Below are positions 2,798 to 54,066 of a DNA stretch of 64,000 nt, one piece after another. Source of the stretch: Escherichia phage vB_EcoM-pEK20; sequence record MZ868638.1; one strand, given 5' to 3'. The notes beneath the pieces were generated by a model that searched no databases, was not told the origin of the DNA, and saw nothing but the letters and a program-made list of their open reading frames with translations. The first letter of the stretch is position 1; each line of letters begins with the position of its first letter. Position numbers and translations under genes: made by a program.

Positions 2798-3160
2798 ATG
2801 AAAGCATATCAAATTCTTGAAGGTGAACATAAAGGCACTATTTATTTTGAAGACGGTACTCAAGCCCGGATTATTGTCTCTAAGACTTTTAAAGAAGACA
2901 CTATTGTAGACCCGGAAATTTTCTACGGTTTGAATGCTCGTGAAATTGAAATTGAACATCAACCTAAAGTTAAAATTGAAGGTGGTCAACACCTGAACGT
3001 TAACGTTCTGCGTCGCGAAACTCTGGAAGATGCAGTTAAGCATCCAGAAAAATATCCGCAGCTGACCATCCGTGTATCCGGTTATGCAGTTCGCTTTAAC
3101 TCTCTGACTCCGGAACAGCAGCGCGACGTTATCGCTCGTACCTTTACCGAGAGTCTATAA
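2798..3160 (+). CDS. Autonomous glycyl radical cofactor (GrcA/YfiD-like)
   Basis: C-terminal ~58 aa [59 protein letters not shown] matches E. coli GrcA as recalled, including the glycyl-radical motif RVSGY. Confidence 0.85.
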
Positions 3161-3384
3161 TGGCTAAATTGATTATAGAAGGGTCTGAAGATGTTTTAAA
3201 ATGTTTTGCCGCCTGGTTTAGTTGCCCAGGCGAGCAATCATTCATTGAAGCATTTAGAACGGGTGATATTACTGGAAACTATCCGACAACTGATATCACT
3301 GTACGTGGATATGGTATTAATGAGCCTATCCAATTGGTCGAATATGACCTTGCCACCGATGAGGAAATTCCTTATGTCGATTGA
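3160..3384 (+). CDS. Hypothetical protein
   Basis: ORF only. Confidence 0.3.
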   Translation: MAKLIIEGSEDVLKCFAAWFSCPGEQSFIEAFRTGDITGNYPTTDITVRGYGINEPIQLVEYDLATDEEIPYVD

Positions 3385-3619
3385 AGACATCAAAGGCTAC
3401 AAGCCGCATACCGATGATAAAATCGGTAAAGTGAACGCTATTAAAGATGCCGAAGTTCGTTTAGGACTTATTCTAGACGCCCTGGCAGAAGAAGCATTAT
3501 CAGCAAATACTCCTGAAGCTCTGACGGCTTTGTCCCAATTGAACTGTGCTAAAGAACGCCTAAAGGAAGCTAGTATGTGGGCTTGTCGTGCGGTATTTCA
3601 ACCAGAGGAAAAATACTAA
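3374..3619 (+). CDS. Hypothetical protein
   Basis: Internal ATG of ORF 3206-3619, overlaps upstream stop. Confidence 0.3.
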
Positions 3620-3918
3620 TGGCTCAAATCCTATCAGGCTTTGGAACTCATTATGAAGCATCTCGACGCATAACTGAAAGCAATCCTTTTGGCCTTGTTC
3701 CGAAGCACAAGAAAATTCAAAGCCTTGATGACTTTGAGAATCGCCTATGGGCCCTCTTTAATGAGTACAAGGCATATCTGAAAGAAGACGCTGACGATTG
3801 TCTTGAAGAAGATGAGATTGCGTATTACGAACAACGCCTTGAACAGCTCAAGAACTTCCACCAGGTTCGTGACGAAGTATCTAAAGCAGTTAAAAAGTTA
3901 ATTCCTTTCAAAGAGTAG
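3619..3918 (+). CDS. Hypothetical protein
   Basis: ATG 3619 overlapping upstream stop (TAATG). Confidence 0.3.
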
Positions 3919-3946
3919 TTTACTTCTCCTCTAGTTGTGTTACTAT
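3918..3946 (+). promoter_or_regulatory. T4-type early promoter with stem-loop (PeSL-like)
   Basis: GTTTAC 3918-3923, TACTAT 3941-3946; arm TTCTCCTCTAGTTG 3924-3937 pairs with CAACTAGAGGAGAA 3955-3968. Confidence 0.45.
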
Positions 3947-3974
3947 AGACCTGTCAACTAGAGGAGAAATCAAA

Positions 3975-4433
3975 ATGACTATCAATTCAGACGTTTTTAT
4001 CCGCCGCAATAAACTCCGTCGAATCTTTGAAACGGAGTTCCGCAAAATAAATGCCAGTATAAAAGATGCTGCAAAGTCTCTTGGACTACCGGGCTTTCAT
4101 ATCAAGTATTCTCAACATCTCTTAGATCGTGCCATCCAGAGAGAAATAGATGAGAATTACGTTTTTGAATTATTTCATAAAGTAAAAAATCATGTTAAAG
4201 AAGTTGCAGAATTTTTATCAATGCCGGCACGTCCAGATGTTGATGAAGATTTTGTCGAAGGTGTCGAATATCGCCCAGGCCGTTTAGAAATAACTGATGG
4301 AAATCTTTGGTTAGGACTTACAGTTTGTCGCGAAAATCCAGCATTCAAAATGAAGACTCTTCAATGCAGAATGGCTATTATTAACAATAAACGACTACCA
4401 GGAAAAGCTTCTAAAGCAGTGATTAAAATCTAG
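3975..4433 (+). CDS. regB: RegB-like sequence-specific endoribonuclease
   Basis: 152 aa; resembles T4 RegB as recalled and lies between denV and tk. Confidence 0.55.
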   Translation: MTINSDVFIRRNKLRRIFETEFRKINASIKDAAKSLGLPGFHIKYSQHLLDRAIQREIDENYVFELFHKVKNHVKEVAEFLSMPARPDVDEDFVEGVEYRPGRLEITDGNLWLGLTVCRENPAFKMKTLQCRMAIINNKRLPGKASKAVIKI

Positions 4434-4441
4434 AGGTAAAC

Positions 4442-4984
4442 ATGAGAAAAGCACTACTCGCTGGTCTATTTGCTCTTTCATTATCAGCACATAGCTCCGA
4501 GCATACTTTTAGTAATGTCCAACTCGATAACTTGAATTATGCTTATCAGTTTGGGGAACAGTTTTCTAAGGATGGAAAATTTAAAACGCATGAAAATATG
4601 CATAAGAAAGGACTTGGATACATAATGGCCGCAATACTATGGCAGGAATCATCTGCCGGTATTAATCTTAAAGATAAGAAAGGTCACCATGCGTATGGAA
4701 TGTTCCAAAATTATCTACCAACAATGAGGGCAAGAATTAACCAACTTGGTTATAATATGACTGATGCCCAAATTAAGAAAATGCTATCTAAGCGGTCTAA
4801 TTCAGCCAGATGGGCTTATATAGAATTTTCTTATTGGTTAAATATACATAACGGGGATATAAGGAAAGCCTTATCCTCATATAATGCGGGATGGAAGACA
4901 AGTGCTGGAAGTAAATATGCTTCTGAAGTCCTAGAAAAGGCTAATTACCTTAAATCAAATAAACTACTGGAAATAAAAGAATGA
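4442..4984 (+). CDS. Periplasmic lytic transglycosylase-like protein with signal peptide
   Basis: Signal peptide MRKALLAGLFALSLSA; Slt-type motifs E-S-S (WQESSAG), GMFQ and YNAGW. Confidence 0.5.
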   Translation: MRKALLAGLFALSLSAHSSEHTFSNVQLDNLNYAYQFGEQFSKDGKFKTHENMHKKGLGYIMAAILWQESSAGINLKDKKGHHAYGMFQNYLPTMRARINQLGYNMTDAQIKKMLSKRSNSARWAYIEFSYWLNIHNGDIRKALSSYNAGWKTSAGSKYASEVLEKANYLKSNKLLEIKE

Positions 4985-5328
4985 CCAAAATGTTGGCTTT
5001 AATAGTTGGCTTGGTTTCATTTAACGCTCTTGCTAATACTACATATACTGATGTAACGGAGTATACAAACAGAACGGCGTCTGATTATTGTGGTAAAAGT
5101 CAAGAGTGTAAAGTAGATTTTTCACAAAAATTGTTATATGCGTATAAAGACGGAGAAAAAGACGGGGCGTCTAGTAGGTTCAAGGCGTCTACTTTAATTA
5201 AAAGATACTATAAAAAATGGCAAATATTAGAATGCTCGGTGGCGGAACCTAAAGATAAGGCGGCATGCAATTCTATGGTGGACCGTCTAGTTGACTCTTA
5301 TACTAGAGGACTTGTAGCAAGTGATTAA
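4981..5328 (+). CDS. Secreted small protein (signal peptide, Cys-containing)
   Basis: N-terminal hydrophobic signal MTKMLALIVGLVSFNALA. Confidence 0.35.
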   Translation: MTKMLALIVGLVSFNALANTTYTDVTEYTNRTASDYCGKSQECKVDFSQKLLYAYKDGEKDGASSRFKASTLIKRYYKKWQILECSVAEPKDKAACNSMVDRLVDSYTRGLVASD

Positions 5329-5788
5329 AAACTATATCAAGGGCGATATTGTCGCCCTGTTTTCTAAAGGTAATAATATTGCTCATGGGTGCAATTGTTT
5401 TCATACAATGGGCGCCGGTGTAGCAGGTCAATTGGCAAAGGCTTATCCAAAAATTTTAGAAGCCGATAAACTTCAAACCGAATTCGGAGATGAGTCTAAA
5501 CTCGGGACTTATTCGGTTTATGAAAAATATTTTAAGACCCATAAAGCTTATTGCTTTAATCTTTATACACAGTTTGAGCCGGGACCTAATTTTGAGTACT
5601 ATGCTTTAATGAATTGTATAATAGAATTAAATGAATTCGGAAAAAATAAGATAACAAAGCCTGTAATTTATATGCCAAGAATTGGTGCAGGTATAGGTGG
5701 TGGAAACTGGGATATCATTGAAGAAATTCTTGATACATATTCCACTAAACTAGAAATTGTGATTGTTGATTGGGAACCATTATTATGA
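5321..5788 (+). CDS. Macro-domain protein (ADP-ribose binding / hydrolase family)
   Basis: GDIVALFSKGNNIAHGCNCFHTMGAGVAGQL and PRIGAGIGGGNW resemble macro-domain motifs; GTG start. Confidence 0.5.
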   Translation: MIKNYIKGDIVALFSKGNNIAHGCNCFHTMGAGVAGQLAKAYPKILEADKLQTEFGDESKLGTYSVYEKYFKTHKAYCFNLYTQFEPGPNFEYYALMNCIIELNEFGKNKITKPVIYMPRIGAGIGGGNWDIIEEILDTYSTKLEIVIVDWEPLL

Positions 5789-5997
5789 ATGTGCATTACC
5801 CACATCCGTTTGATCCTAAAAATAAAGCAGTAATTATTCGTCAATGGGAACGCATTTGTCGTACTAAATGTCCAATTAATAGTCCACATGATGTAGATAA
5901 AGACTACATCGGAACATTCGTTGAATATACCTTTATTGATAAGAAAGGTCGTAAACAACATGTAGAAGAATATTGCTTAAAGGTTACATGGTTATGA
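5785..5997 (+). CDS. Hypothetical protein
   Basis: ORF only. Confidence 0.3.
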   Translation: MNVHYPHPFDPKNKAVIIRQWERICRTKCPINSPHDVDKDYIGTFVEYTFIDKKGRKQHVEEYCLKVTWL

Positions 5998-6179
5998 GTT
6001 TAAGTAAAGAACAAAAAGACATACTATTTTCTCTTATTCACGAAGTTATGGATAAAAATAGTGAATTGGAAAAAGTTTGCGATGAATGCGGTCCTTTTAA
6101 TACCGACGAATACGAAGAACTGTGTAAAGATTTCGACGATAAAGAACAAGAACTTATTGATTATATAAATTCCTTATGA
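5994..6179 (+). CDS. Hypothetical acidic protein
   Basis: ORF only. Confidence 0.3.
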   Translation: MSLSKEQKDILFSLIHEVMDKNSELEKVCDECGPFNTDEYEELCKDFDDKEQELIDYINSL

Positions 6180-6373
6180 TTACTCGCGAACAAAAGAATG
6201 AAATACGATTTTTAATCAGCGAAATTATTAGTTTAGAACGAGATTTATCTTTTGAATTGGCTTCGGATTATGGAGATGCTGAAACATACTACGAATTAGT
6301 AAAATCTATCGATAAAGCTGAAAATGATTTAGAAACATATTTAGAAAATTTAACTAAGGACTCTTATGGCTAG
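6176..6373 (+). CDS. Hypothetical acidic protein
   Basis: ORF only. Confidence 0.3.
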   Translation: MITREQKNEIRFLISEIISLERDLSFELASDYGDAETYYELVKSIDKAENDLETYLENLTKDSYG

Positions 6374-6947
6374 TTTAATTTTTACATATGCCGCTATGAA
6401 CGCTGGTAAGTCTGCTTCATTACTTACTGCCGCTCATAACTATAAAGAACGTGGCATGGGTGTATTAGTTCTTAAACCGGCTATTGATACTCGCGATTCA
6501 AAAGGTGAAATAGTCTCTCGTATTGGTATTCGTCAGGACGCCAATATAATTACAAAAGACATGGATATCTTTGAATTCTATAAATGGGCTGCAGCACAAA
6601 AGGATATTCATTGTGTATTTGTTGACGAAGCTCAATTCTTAACTACTGAAAAGGTGTATCAACTTAGTCGTATTGTTGACGTATACAATGTGCCGGTAAT
6701 GGCATATGGACTACGAACAGATTTTAAAGGTAATCTATTTGAAGGTTCTCAAGCATTAATGGCTATTGCCGATAAGCTTGTTGAACTTAAAGGTGTCTGT
6801 CATTGTGGTAAAAAGACCACAATGGTAGCTAGAGTCACGGAAGACGGACTTCCAATTATAGATGGCAGTCAAATTGAAATTGGTGATACTGATAGATATG
6901 TGTCATTATGCCGGAAGCATTGGAATGATTTGACAGGGTTGTTATAA
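6366..6947 (+). CDS. tk: Thymidine kinase
   Basis: P-loop AAMNAGKS plus C-terminal Zn motif CHCGKK...CRKH; matches T4 Tk. Confidence 0.9.
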   Translation: MASLIFTYAAMNAGKSASLLTAAHNYKERGMGVLVLKPAIDTRDSKGEIVSRIGIRQDANIITKDMDIFEFYKWAAAQKDIHCVFVDEAQFLTTEKVYQLSRIVDVYNVPVMAYGLRTDFKGNLFEGSQALMAIADKLVELKGVCHCGKKTTMVARVTEDGLPIIDGSQIEIGDTDRYVSLCRKHWNDLTGLL

Positions 6948-6974
6948 ATACTAATATCTAACCAAGAGGTATAT

Positions 6975-7187
6975 ATGCAGCAATTAAACGAAAGACAACT
7001 TCGTAATCTTACTGTAACCCAATTGGATGAAATCCGAAGAGAATTAGGACATTCTATTTCTCATTTAAACGAGGATATCCGTCAAACTGGTTCTAAAGCT
7101 GATTATACACGCAAGCGCAAGCTGGAAAAATACCTCACAGATGTTAAGGCCGTCCAAAGGCGAAAAATAAATACTGGCCAAAATTAA
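6975..7187 (+). CDS. Hypothetical protein (rI.-1 position)
   Basis: ORF between tk and rI. Confidence 0.35.
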
Positions 7188-7199
7188 CAGGAGGCCTAT

Positions 7200-7502
7200 A
7201 TGGCCTTAAGAGCGATAGCTGTCATAGCGATGCTGGGGTTTTTTGCAGCAACAACTCCTATCGTTGGTACTGCACATATCGACCCATATTTTGATAACTT
7301 TATGGAATCAGGGATTAAAAACGTATATACTTTGTTTGAAATTCAAAATGTCGAGAATTCTGAAAAATTCTATAAGTATATGGCAAAGCATTACAAAAAT
7401 AGCCCCTGTGATGATGCATTTGAATGTCATGAACAAGGCATAAAAACCGCCAGACAATTTGCCGAGTTCATGAAAATAAAATTAGAGCCTACATCTATCT
7501 AA
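7200..7502 (+). CDS. rI: Lysis inhibition regulator RI (antiholin-binding)
   Basis: Signal-anchor plus NxDPxFDxFMESGIxxVYxLFE motif, matches T4 RI as recalled. Confidence 0.8.
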   Translation: MALRAIAVIAMLGFFAATTPIVGTAHIDPYFDNFMESGIKNVYTLFEIQNVENSEKFYKYMAKHYKNSPCDDAFECHEQGIKTARQFAEFMKIKLEPTSI

Positions 7503-47765: not shown

Positions 47766-48416
47766 ATGATTTATTACATGCACAAAAATGCGCCATTTAA
47801 ATATGGTAAATTTCCTAATGCGCAATGTTATAATATAACGCCGAATGAAAATAATAACGGATATCATATTGGTGTAATTTTTGTAATTGTTAAAGATAAC
47901 GAAATCGTTGCCTGGGCAGATTTTAAAGGTACAACATATGATGTTAATCCTGTGCCTTTCACATATTACAATATAATGGATTTGGCATATGATTATAATT
48001 GGTTTAATCACGACGCGTTGGCTCATATTGAAGGTGTAGGATTTGACATCTCTTATTCTAGCTATTCATTATGTCCTATGAGCCGAGCTCACGGTAAAGA
48101 TGCATCATATCTTTCATTTCGGAAACGTGTAAACTTCAAACGTAGTACAGAGTATGTCGGTGGACTCTTTGTTAAAGATAATAAAATAACCCGTATTAGT
48201 TATCCTCTAAGTGTAGGTCAAAAAGATGTTGATGTTGATTTAGACTTAACTGAAAATAACATTAATCATATTGCTTCTGTATATTTTGATATCGATGAAA
48301 AAATTGTAGTGTGTGGATACGAATTACCACCCGAAGAAAAGGCTGAAGCAATTGAAGTCGAATTAGAAATTTCTGTCGATGACCAAATATTTAATGCATT
48401 TATGAATCGAGGTTAA
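47766..48416 (+). CDS. Hypothetical protein
   Basis: ORF only. Confidence 0.3.
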   Translation: MIYYMHKNAPFKYGKFPNAQCYNITPNENNNGYHIGVIFVIVKDNEIVAWADFKGTTYDVNPVPFTYYNIMDLAYDYNWFNHDALAHIEGVGFDISYSSYSLCPMSRAHGKDASYLSFRKRVNFKRSTEYVGGLFVKDNKITRISYPLSVGQKDVDVDLDLTENNINHIASVYFDIDEKIVVCGYELPPEEKAEAIEVELEISVDDQIFNAFMNRG

Positions 48417-52818: not shown

Positions 52819-53400
52819 ATGACATGTCAATCTGAACTTCAAGAACGCGAATACCTAACAAATCTGATTGATAGCAAATTCACCCGCCAAGAACAAAACA
52901 TTCTCTGGGCCTGCACCGATTCTAAGGAAGACCCGGATTTCCACTATGAATTAGACCATCTTGTTCGTAAGCATATGACTTCTACAGTGCCAGTAGAACT
53001 CTACCGTGGTGTAACTCCAGAAGAAGTAGAACGTCTTTCCCTTCTTTCTGTGGGATGCCATTGGTCTCCTGGACGAGTAACATCGTTCACAACTGATTTC
53101 AGTACAGCTCGTCAATTCTCCGGGAGATGGGAATATCAGACGTACACTATTCTTAGTCTCAGGAATGCTCCATTCATTTTTGATTACTACCAAAACATGG
53201 TTAACATTGTACTTGCCGGAAAGAACCCTAAGCATGTTATGGAAGAAACGCGTGTTGACGTCCTAGATATGATTGAATCTGAACAAGAATACATGGTCTC
53301 AGGTATCTCTAGATTTGAGATTGTGGAAATTGAAGAGTTAGAGTATGACCCTTTGTCTCGAGTATACAAAATCATTCACTTAAAGATGTTGAATTTTTAG
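52819..53400 (+). CDS. modB: ADP-ribosyltransferase, ModB-like (R-S-E class)
   Basis: LYRGV (Arg), FTTDFSTA (S-T-S region), EQEYMV (E-x-E); position after gene 56 like T4 modB. Confidence 0.5.
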   Translation: MTCQSELQEREYLTNLIDSKFTRQEQNILWACTDSKEDPDFHYELDHLVRKHMTSTVPVELYRGVTPEEVERLSLLSVGCHWSPGRVTSFTTDFSTARQFSGRWEYQTYTILSLRNAPFIFDYYQNMVNIVLAGKNPKHVMEETRVDVLDMIESEQEYMVSGISRFEIVEIEELEYDPLSRVYKIIHLKMLNF

Positions 53401-53457
53401 TGTACAAACTCTACCTACGATGATACTATACTTTTATCAACCACAGGAGAAACCTAA

Positions 53458-54066
53458 ATGTTTATGCCGTATAACGAGTGTGAAATTGAAGAAATGGTTC
53501 GTCGTGCTCAAAACCCCGAATATCAAGATGTATTGCAGTACGAAATTGATAGTCAATTCAGCGACATTGAACAAAGTGTACTGTGGCAGTGTATGGAAAA
53601 CAAGCCAGACTGTATTCAACAGGAGTTAAGTTCAATCGTTCGTAGAAATTGGACGTCTTCTGTTCCTGAGACAATGTATCGTGGAATCTCTAAGAAAACT
53701 ATAGCCACACTCGATGATAAAGGTATTGGTAGTATTATTAAATTTGACAGAGTAATGAGCTTCAGCCCAGTGTTCGGTGTAGCACGTAACTTTGCTTCGT
53801 ATAATTTTTACGGAACATTTAATATGTTCTGCATCAAAGATGCACCATTTGCTTTCAACTTCCGTGAACATATGCTTAATATGATTCTGGCTGCACCATC
53901 TTGTGAGTTCAATGGAGCTTTCCCTGAAGCGACAAGACGGTCTAATGCTAGACTTATATCTGACGAATGTGAATTTATGCTCCCTATAGGGACTACACTG
54001 CGTGTAGATTCTATTATTCAAGATGGACGTTATACAATCTGGAATCTGTCTATTGTCAGTTACTGA
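53458..54066 (+). CDS. modA: ADP-ribosyltransferase, ModA-like (R-S-E class)
   Basis: MYRGI, MSFSPVFGVA, ECEFML; paralog of the upstream gene. Confidence 0.5.
   Translation: MFMPYNECEIEEMVRRAQNPEYQDVLQYEIDSQFSDIEQSVLWQCMENKPDCIQQELSSIVRRNWTSSVPETMYRGISKKTIATLDDKGIGSIIKFDRVMSFSPVFGVARNFASYNFYGTFNMFCIKDAPFAFNFREHMLNMILAAPSCEFNGAFPEATRRSNARLISDECEFMLPIGTTLRVDSIIQDGRYTIWNLSIVSY

What the first reader, a model, noticed from the sequence alone, without database searches (positions are those of the whole stretch)
5321..5788. Macro-domain protein in a genome encoding two Mod-like ADP-ribosyltransferases
Macro-domain-like motifs (GDI...IAHGCNC...MGAGVAG and PRIGAGIGGG) suggest ADP-ribose binding or hydrolysis. 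The phage also carries ModA/ModB-like transferases (52819-54066). A macro domain could erase phage- or host-installed ADP-ribosylation, including defence-associated ADP-ribosylation of DNA or proteins.
Basis: partly seen in the sequence, partly recalled or inferred. Interest (0 to 1): 0.6.

Follow-up and report, generated by a model that had tools for sequence, protein, structure and literature searches.

The report
Known T4 anti-DarT macrodomain gene (tk.4/adfM)
The ORF is a real macro-domain (ADP-ribose-removing) protein, but it is the ordinary, widely conserved T4 gene tk.4, recently named adfM and shown in T4 to protect the phage from the bacterial DarTG2 defence that ADP-ribosylates DNA.

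Summary

The window is a Tequatrovirus, 99.7% identical to Shigella phage SSE1 over 2.6 kb. The ORF sits between vs and tk.3/tk and is 85% identical, without gaps, to T4 Tk.4. Tk.4 has been annotated as an 'A1pp phosphatase' since at least 2006. A November 2025 preprint showed that deleting tk.4 sensitises T4 to DarTG2 and renamed the gene adfM.

The link to ModA/ModB is not supported. Homologues of the macro protein occur in 2790 phage records, against 1078 for the Mod-like protein.

One point I did not find stated in the papers read: the Tk.4 family has an invariant Gln where DarG and TARG1 have their catalytic Lys. SCO6735, a proven thymidine-ADPr DNA hydrolase, has the same Gln. PhiKZ 'AdfM' is a Lys-type, DarG-like protein and not an ortholog.

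Novelty: already known. Interest: low.

The parts
5321..5788 (+). tk.4 / adfM ortholog: 155-aa stand-alone macro-domain protein (GTG start, TGA stop included)
5306..5310 (+). GAGGA Shine-Dalgarno sequence, 11 nt upstream of the GTG start; the start overlaps the last codons of vs (vs ends at 5328)
   Evidence: Sequence. T4 has the same GAGGA and spacing, with an ATG start.
5384..5428 (+). Loop 1 / catalytic-loop region HGCNCFHTMGAGVAG (residues 22-36). It contains invariant N25, which aligns with the conserved Asn of the DarG-like proteins (PhiKZ gp104 N23), plus G23, G33 and A35.
   Evidence: Invariant columns in the 69-sequence family alignment. Alignment to the DarG-like profile and to TARG1/BT1257. 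Mutating the conserved Asn lowers activity in SCO6735, DarG and PhiKZ AdfM.
5558..5572 (+). NLYTQ motif (residues 80-84). Invariant Gln84 occupies the column of the catalytic Lys of DarG (K80) and TARG1 (K84).
   Evidence: hhalign pairs NLYTQ with DarG NFPTK. hmmsearch pairs it with TARG1 LITK. Gln is conserved in 7 diverse Tk.4-like phage proteins and BT1257, while gp104, DarG and TARG1 have Lys. SCO6735 has Gln85 at this position and Q85A is inactive.
5675..5710 (+). Loop 2 / phosphate-binding loop PRIGAGIGGGNW (residues 119-130). P119, I121, G122, G124 and W130 are invariant. G126 sits where TARG1 has D125.
   Evidence: for invariance. Direct alignment to SCO6735 PRIGCGLAGGTW and TARG1 PRIGCGLDRLQW. 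SCO6735 G128E, equivalent to G124 here, lowers activity.

Best explanation
This ORF is the tk.4 (adfM) gene of a T4-like phage. It encodes a stand-alone macro-domain enzyme of the ALC1-like class (TARG1, DarG, Poa1p, SCO6735). The most likely function is an 'orphan antitoxin': when the host DarTG2 system is triggered and DarT2 ADP-ribosylates thymidines in single-stranded phage DNA, the protein binds the ADP-ribose through its two glycine-rich loops and hydrolyses the ribose-thymine N-glycosidic bond, so replication can continue. Chemically it should work like SCO6735 rather than DarG. It has no catalytic lysine; an invariant Gln84, held by invariant Asn25, would position the distal ribose for attack by water. 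Shown here: ORF, fold, orthology, active-site residues. Shown by others for the T4 ortholog: loss of tk.4 sensitises T4 to DarTG2. Inferred: the enzymatic removal of ADP-ribose from DNA, the Gln-based mechanism, and the transfer of the phenotype to this phage.
Against: No biochemical assay of any Tk.4-type protein was found; the preprint itself says enzymatic removal 'seems likely'. The phenotype was measured in T4, not in this phage. 23 residues inside the protein differ from T4, including position 127 in the phosphate-binding loop (G here, K in T4). The SCO6735 DNA-contacting lysine K34 seems to have no counterpart: loop 1 reads MGAG here and MGKG in DarG. I could not align the N-terminal half of SCO6735 directly. 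A comparative-genomics study argued that most phage macro domains target small ADPr derivatives rather than macromolecules.
Confidence: 0.8

Rival explanations
1. Eraser for the phage's own ADP-ribosyltransferases: the macro domain removes or edits ADP-ribose (or RNA chains) that Alt, ModA or ModB place on host proteins. This is the pairing implied by the first reader's title.
For: Two Mod-like ARTs with visible R/S/ExE motifs are encoded in the same window. Macro domains are generic ADPr erasers. One arginine-specific macrodomain, MavL, is described in the literature (title and abstract).
Against: Alt and Mod enzymes modify arginine. The nearest relatives (TARG1, DarG, SCO6735, Poa1p) are characterised on acidic-residue esters, thymidine-linked DNA or ADPr-1''-phosphate. 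The profile search at E<=0.01 and the listed fold matches returned no entry labelled as an arginine-specific macrodomain. The macro family is about 2.6 times more widespread than Mod homologues and occurs in phage groups that were not among the Mod hits. The Mod proteins here are 26-38% identical to T4's while the macro is 85% identical, so they do not co-evolve. tk.4 lies about 47 kb from the mod genes, in a different gene cluster.
Confidence: 0.06
2. Small-molecule ADP-ribose metabolism. This is the historical 'phosphatase' annotation: hydrolysis of ADP-ribose-1''-phosphate, O-acetyl-ADP-ribose or an ADPr-derived immune signal, rather than of DNA adducts.
Against: The annotation is transferred from the domain name only. 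In the phmmer alignment Poa1p has Ser where the Tk.4 family has its invariant Gln84. The only experimental phenotype known for tk.4 is specific to DarTG2, a DNA-modifying system. A side activity on small molecules is not excluded.
Confidence: 0.08
3. Non-catalytic antitoxin mimic: the protein neutralises DarT2 mainly by binding and inhibiting it, not by hydrolysis.
For: Catalytically dead SCO6735 (Q85A), DarG (K80A) and TARG1 (K84A) all inhibit DarT in vitro, SCO6735 most strongly. The other T4-group factor, AdfA, acts by binding DarT1.
Against: The protein lacks the C-terminal DarT-binding domain of DarG: only model positions 4-146 of 338 match. Every residue needed for ADPr binding and catalysis in SCO6735-type enzymes is invariant across the family down to 38% identity, which argues for selection on enzymatic activity.
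Confidence: 0.06

Closest known systems
T4 Tk.4 = AdfM (anti-DarT factor Macrodomain; HIDEN-SEQ preprint, bioRxiv 10.1101/2025.11.20.689424)
   Same: 85% identical over all 155 residues without gaps. Same position between vs and tk.3/tk.2/tk.1/tk. All invariant family residues are retained.
   Different: GTG instead of ATG start. 23 internal substitutions. G127 here, which is the family consensus, against K127 in T4. The phenotype has not been tested in this phage.
Streptomyces coelicolor SCO6735 (PDB 5E3B), a thymidine-ADPr DNA hydrolase of the ALC1-like macro class
   Same: Stand-alone macrodomain with no DarT partner. Gln at the DarG-K80/TARG1-K84 position. Conserved Asn, conserved PRIG-x-G loop and a GG-x-W motif.
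   Different: Distant in sequence: phmmer E=8e-5, profile E=9e-15. It is bacterial and DNA-damage regulated. The K34 equivalent appears to be missing here. Only the C-terminal part could be aligned directly.
DarG (DarG2) antitoxin macrodomain (PDB 5M31, 5M3E, 5M3I, 7OMU)
   Different: No C-terminal DarT-binding domain. The NCBIfam DarG score is 29 bits against a cut-off of 250. The catalytic Lys80 is replaced by Gln84. There is no adjacent darT gene.
PhiKZ gp104 'AdfM' (Morgan et al., Cell Rep 2026, PMC13309987)
   Same: Phage-encoded stand-alone macrodomain that counters DarTG2. De-ADP-ribosylation of DarT2-modified DNA was shown in vitro.
   Different: Not an ortholog. gp104 is a close DarG homologue (5M3I 9e-25) with the FPTK lysine motif. 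BLASTP against the window protein finds only a 23-residue local match. The two groups arrived at the same name independently.
Bacteroides thetaiotaomicron BT1257 (PDB 2FG1/2AFC) and yeast Poa1p (6LFQ)
   Different: The depositors list BT1257 as a protein of unknown function. Poa1p is an ADPr-1''-phosphate phosphatase and has Ser at the Gln position in the phmmer alignment.

Membership tests
Macro domain superfamily (Pfam PF01661) | Score above Pfam's gathering threshold | tested here: met
   28 bits against a cut-off of 22, E=2.3e-6, covering profile positions 2-117 of 118.
Macro domain superfamily (Pfam PF01661) | Three-layer alpha/beta/alpha macro fold | tested here: met
Macro domain superfamily (Pfam PF01661) | Two glycine-rich ADP-ribose-binding loops | tested here: met
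   MGAGVAG and PRIGAGIGGG align with the corresponding loops of TARG1, DarG, BT1257 and SCO6735.
Macro domain superfamily (Pfam PF01661) | Binds ADP-ribose | not testable with these tools
   Needs ITC, thermal shift or co-crystallisation.
T4 Tk.4 / AdfM orthologous group | Full-length high sequence identity to T4 Tk.4 | tested here: met
   131/155 identical, no gaps, E=5e-104.
T4 Tk.4 / AdfM orthologous group | Conserved genomic position (regB - vs.1 - vs - tk.4 - tk.3 - tk.2 - tk.1 - tk) | tested here: met
   Window ORFs and PHROG hits against the T4 annotation. The 2.6-kb region is 97-99.7% identical to many Tequatrovirus records.
T4 Tk.4 / AdfM orthologous group | Required for growth on DarTG2-expressing hosts | not testable with these tools
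   Shown only for T4 itself.
DarG antitoxin (NCBIfam NF048014, equivalog) | Score above the equivalog cut-off (two-domain architecture with a C-terminal DarT-binding domain) | tested here: not met
   29.3 bits against a cut-off of 250. Only model positions 4-146 of 338 match, and the protein is 155 aa.
DarG antitoxin (NCBIfam NF048014, equivalog) | Catalytic lysine (Lys80 in T. aquaticus DarG) | tested here: not met
   The aligned residue is an invariant Gln84.
DarG antitoxin (NCBIfam NF048014, equivalog) | Encoded next to a darT toxin gene | tested here: not met
   The neighbours are vs (valyl-tRNA synthetase modifier) and tk.3.
TARG1/OARD1-type glycohydrolase | Lys84/Asp125 catalytic dyad | tested here: not met
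   The hmmsearch alignment puts Gln84 opposite K84 and G126 opposite D125.
SCO6735-type (Gln-type) ALC1-like thymidine-ADPr hydrolase | Gln at the DarG-K80/TARG1-K84 position, essential in SCO6735 (Q85A is dead) | tested here: met
   Gln84 is invariant in 69 family members and in 7 distant phage homologues. Equivalence rests on the DarG and TARG1 alignments plus the paper's statement.
SCO6735-type (Gln-type) ALC1-like thymidine-ADPr hydrolase | Conserved Asn that locks the Gln (SCO6735 N27), and the G126/G128 phosphate-binding loop | tested here: met
   N25, G122 and G124 are invariant. The loop aligns directly with SCO6735 PRIGCGLAGGTW.
SCO6735-type (Gln-type) ALC1-like thymidine-ADPr hydrolase | DNA-positioning lysines (SCO6735 K34, K89) | tested here: inconclusive
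   Loop 1 is MGAG here and MGKG in DarG. No direct alignment of the N-terminal half of SCO6735 could be obtained.
SCO6735-type (Gln-type) ALC1-like thymidine-ADPr hydrolase | Hydrolyses thymidine-linked ADP-ribose on ssDNA | not testable with these tools
   Needs an in vitro assay with a DarT2-modified oligonucleotide.
Poa1p-type ADP-ribose-1''-phosphate phosphatase | Appr-1''-p phosphatase activity | not testable with these tools

The most novel reading that the evidence does not exclude
The T4-type AdfM family is a lysine-less, Gln-type ALC1-like macrodomain that phages recruited independently of the Lys-type, DarG-like AdfM of chimalliviruses. Its breadth (2790 phage records across many host genera) may mean that it erases more than DarT2 marks. 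Candidates are base-linked ADP-ribose on RNA (uracil) or other, still unknown nucleic-acid ADP-ribosylating defences, or even ModB-type RNAylation products.
Probability: 0.12. Interest if true: 0.55.

Novelty: already known. Interest (0 to 1): 0.2.

Why it matters
DarTG systems stop phages by ADP-ribosylating their DNA, and T-even phages carry layered countermeasures: AdfA, AdfN and AdfM. This window only adds another ortholog of AdfM, so it changes little. Two points may help people working on the family. First, the T4-type AdfM lacks the DarG/TARG1 catalytic lysine and shares SCO6735's essential glutamine, which gives a concrete mutagenesis target (Q84, N25). Second, the two proteins published under the name AdfM (T4 Tk.4 and PhiKZ gp104) belong to different branches of the macro class.

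Tried and rejected
1. A direct full-length alignment to SCO6735. The PDB tool prints only five alignments, and a C-terminal query returned just residues 139-170 of chain 5E3B. The Gln equivalence therefore rests on the DarG and TARG1 alignments plus the paper's statement.

2. BLASTP against PhiKZ gp104 gave only a 23-residue local match. Orthology with the chimallivirus AdfM was rejected. Profile-profile comparison was needed to see the relationship.

3. The promoter and terminator scan of 3000-7200 gave 13 promoter-like sites against 13.8 +/- 3.4 in shuffles, and 4 terminator-like sites against 2.5 +/- 1.7. I draw no regulatory conclusion from it.

4. I looked for a functional link to ModA/ModB through distribution and co-divergence and rejected it.

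5. The antisense ORFs 5303-5431 and 5668-5961 were listed mechanically. I disregarded them because the + strand ORFs have strong homologues.

6. Three literature calls failed on the 3-character term limit. A review of bacterial and viral ADP-ribosylation systems does not mention Tk.4.

Full report
**Observation.** The ORF exists as described. It runs from 5321 to 5788 on the + strand, starts with GTG and encodes 155 aa. Its translation contains GDI, IAHGCNC, MGAGVAG and PRIGAGIGGG. A GAGGA ribosome-binding site lies 11 nt upstream of the start, and the start overlaps the last codons of the upstream gene. The protein passes Pfam's curated threshold for the Macro domain: 28 bits against 22, E=2.3e-6, covering almost the whole model. 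It matches PHROG 335 at 2e-66. By sequence alone it finds the solved macrodomains BT1257 (1e-10), yeast Poa1p (2e-8), SCO6735, DarG and TARG1.

**Fold.** I built a 69-sequence alignment of homologues from the 5.8-billion-protein search. From it AlphaFold2 gave a model with mean pLDDT 95.2 and pTM 0.90.
- Foldseek against the PDB ranks Poa1p, TARG1, BT1257, DarG and SCO6735 first, all at probability 1.00.
- Z then steps down to 13.7 or below for coronavirus, PARP14, MacroD and other macrodomains.

The protein therefore belongs to the class that the SCO6735 paper calls ALC1-like.

**What the gene is.** The 2.6 kb around the ORF is 99.7% identical to Shigella phage SSE1 and 97-99% identical to about 150 other Tequatrovirus records. 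The neighbours are regB, vs.1 and vs upstream, and tk.3, tk.2, tk.1 and thymidine kinase downstream. This is the T4 order around tk.4.
- The protein is 85% identical to T4 Tk.4 over all 155 residues, without gaps.
- At the DNA level the two genes are 81% identical.
- They differ at 47 synonymous and 23 amino-acid-changing codons, excluding the GTG/ATG start codon. None of the changes falls in an invariant family column.

The gene is therefore a conserved ortholog under purifying selection.

**What is already known.**
- T4 tk.4 is annotated 'phosphatase; contains A1pp phosphatase motif', and its domain match was reported in 2006.
- Johannesman et al. (2025) showed that T4 lacking both adfA (61.2) and adfN (30.3) is still resistant to DarTG2, and suggested that a further factor exists.
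- The HIDEN-SEQ preprint of November 2025 found tk.4 as the single significant transposon hit on a DarTG2-expressing host.
- The same preprint confirmed that a clean knockout sensitises T4. It renamed the gene adfM and proposed, without biochemistry, that the protein removes ADP-ribose from DNA.

No other functional study of Tk.4 turned up in the library.

**Mechanism.**
- Profile-profile comparison of the Tk.4 family with a DarG-like alignment gives 98.7% probability and E=3e-16 over 143 columns. It pairs the family's invariant NLYTQ with DarG's NFPTK.
- The family profile aligned to TARG1 pairs the same Gln84 with TARG1 Lys84, and G126 with TARG1 Asp125. The catalytic lysine of DarG and TARG1, and the Lys/Asp dyad of TARG1, are therefore absent.
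- Gln84 is invariant in all 69 family members down to 38% identity.
- Gln84 is also present in more distant Tk.4-like proteins of KP15, 44RR2.8t, FelixO1, PAK_P4, Cellulophaga phi17:2 and SJ2, and in BT1257. PhiKZ gp104, T. aquaticus DarG and TARG1 have Lys.

This is the situation described for Streptomyces SCO6735. That enzyme has Gln85 at the Lys position and cleaves thymidine-linked ADP-ribose on DNA. It loses all activity in Q85A, and depends on Asn27 to hold the Gln and on Gly128 in the phosphate loop. The Asn (N25 here, by the DarG and TARG1 alignments) and the glycines G122 and G124 (aligned directly to SCO6735) are invariant in the Tk.4 family. I therefore infer a SCO6735-like, water-mediated hydrolysis of the ribose-thymine bond. 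This step is inference.

**Relation to the other 'AdfM'.** Morgan et al. (2026) gave the same name to PhiKZ gp104 and showed in vitro removal of DarT2 marks from DNA. gp104 is a close DarG homologue (5M3I 9e-25) with the FPTK lysine motif. It shares only a 23-residue BLAST match with the window protein. The two AdfM proteins thus come from different branches of the same macro class.

**Membership.** The protein is a macro domain and a Tk.4/AdfM ortholog. It is not a DarG:
- it scores 29 bits against a cut-off of 250;
- only the macro half of the model is matched;
- it has no catalytic Lys;
- it has no adjacent darT gene.

PADLOC's DarG model matches at 3.9e-8, again only over the macro part.

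**The Mod link.** Three results speak against a dedicated Mod/macro pair.
- The macro family is found by tblastn in 2790 phage records from many host genera. The Mod-like protein is found in 1078 records, almost all enterobacterial T4-like phages.
- The Mod proteins of this window are only 26-38% identical to T4 ModA/ModB, while the macro protein is 85% identical to its T4 counterpart.
- Alt and Mod enzymes modify arginine. The closest characterised relatives act on esters, thymidine-DNA or ADPr-1''-phosphate. No entry labelled as an arginine-specific macrodomain appeared among the profile hits at E<=0.01 or the listed fold matches.

A side activity on phage-made marks is not excluded, but nothing supports it.

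**Rivals.** Three alternatives remain, each at low probability:
- small-molecule ADPr processing, the old 'phosphatase' label and the general proposal of Iyer et al.;
- non-catalytic inhibition of DarT2, which dead SCO6735, DarG and TARG1 can all do in vitro;
- erasure of Mod or Alt marks.

The strict conservation of the catalytic constellation, together with the DarTG2-specific phenotype, favours enzymatic DNA repair.

**Verdict.** The function is most likely anti-DarTG2 de-ADP-ribosylation of phage DNA. The gene is the known tk.4/adfM, so novelty is 'already known' and interest is low. The useful residue is the Gln-for-Lys active site, which I did not see pointed out in the papers read, and the fact that the two published AdfM proteins are not orthologs.

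Noticed in passing
window 52819-53400 and 53458-54066 (+): The two Mod-like ADP-ribosyltransferases are very divergent from T4's: 26-38% identity, both closer to ModB than to ModA, and 33% identical to each other. The flanking srd is 68% identical and tk.4 85% identical to T4. R/S/ExE-type motifs (YRG, SFT or SFS, EQE or ECE) are retained. Only about 150 of the 1078 phage records with a homologue carry a copy more than 90% identical to the second ORF, so this looks like an exchanged or fast-evolving mod cassette.
   Followed up: partly
window 47766-48413 (+): Ortholog of T4 gp61.2 (AdfA, the DarT1-binding anti-DarTG1 factor), 67% identical over the full length by tblastn. The window therefore carries two of the three known T-even anti-DarT genes. 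adfN (30.3) lies elsewhere in T4-type genomes and was not looked for.
   Followed up: partly
window 5340-5358 (+), inside tk.4 codons 7-13: An 8-bp, GC-rich hairpin (AGGGCGATATTGTCGCCCT) followed by a T-rich run sits 19 nt into the coding sequence. The hairpin sequence is identical in T4 although the genes are only 81% identical overall. The terminator-like count in the region is not above the shuffles, so it may simply reflect the conserved KGDIVAL codons.
   Followed up: no
window 5321-5328 against T4 (L001 4387-4390): The start codon is GTG here and ATG in T4. The overlap with the upstream vs gene is 8 nt here and 4 nt in T4, because vs is one codon longer at this junction. The Shine-Dalgarno sequence and its spacing are conserved.
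   Followed up: yes
residue 127 of the protein (window 5699-5701): T4 Tk.4 has Lys at position 127 of the phosphate-binding loop (IGAGIGKGNW). This phage and at least 90% of the family have Gly. T4, the only member tested genetically, is the atypical one at this site.
   Followed up: no
literature (PhiKZ gp104 against T4 Tk.4): Two groups independently named different macrodomain proteins 'AdfM'. PhiKZ gp104 is a Lys-type DarG homologue and T4 Tk.4 is a Gln-type, BT1257/SCO6735-like protein.
   Followed up: yes
window 4442-4984 (+): The vs.1 ortholog (PHROG 600, 3e-67) begins with a hydrophobic, signal-peptide-like N-terminus. The 2006 comparative paper reports weak SLT-transglycosylase Pfam matches for vs.1, and one GenBank record labels the region 'lytic transglycosylase'.
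   Followed up: no
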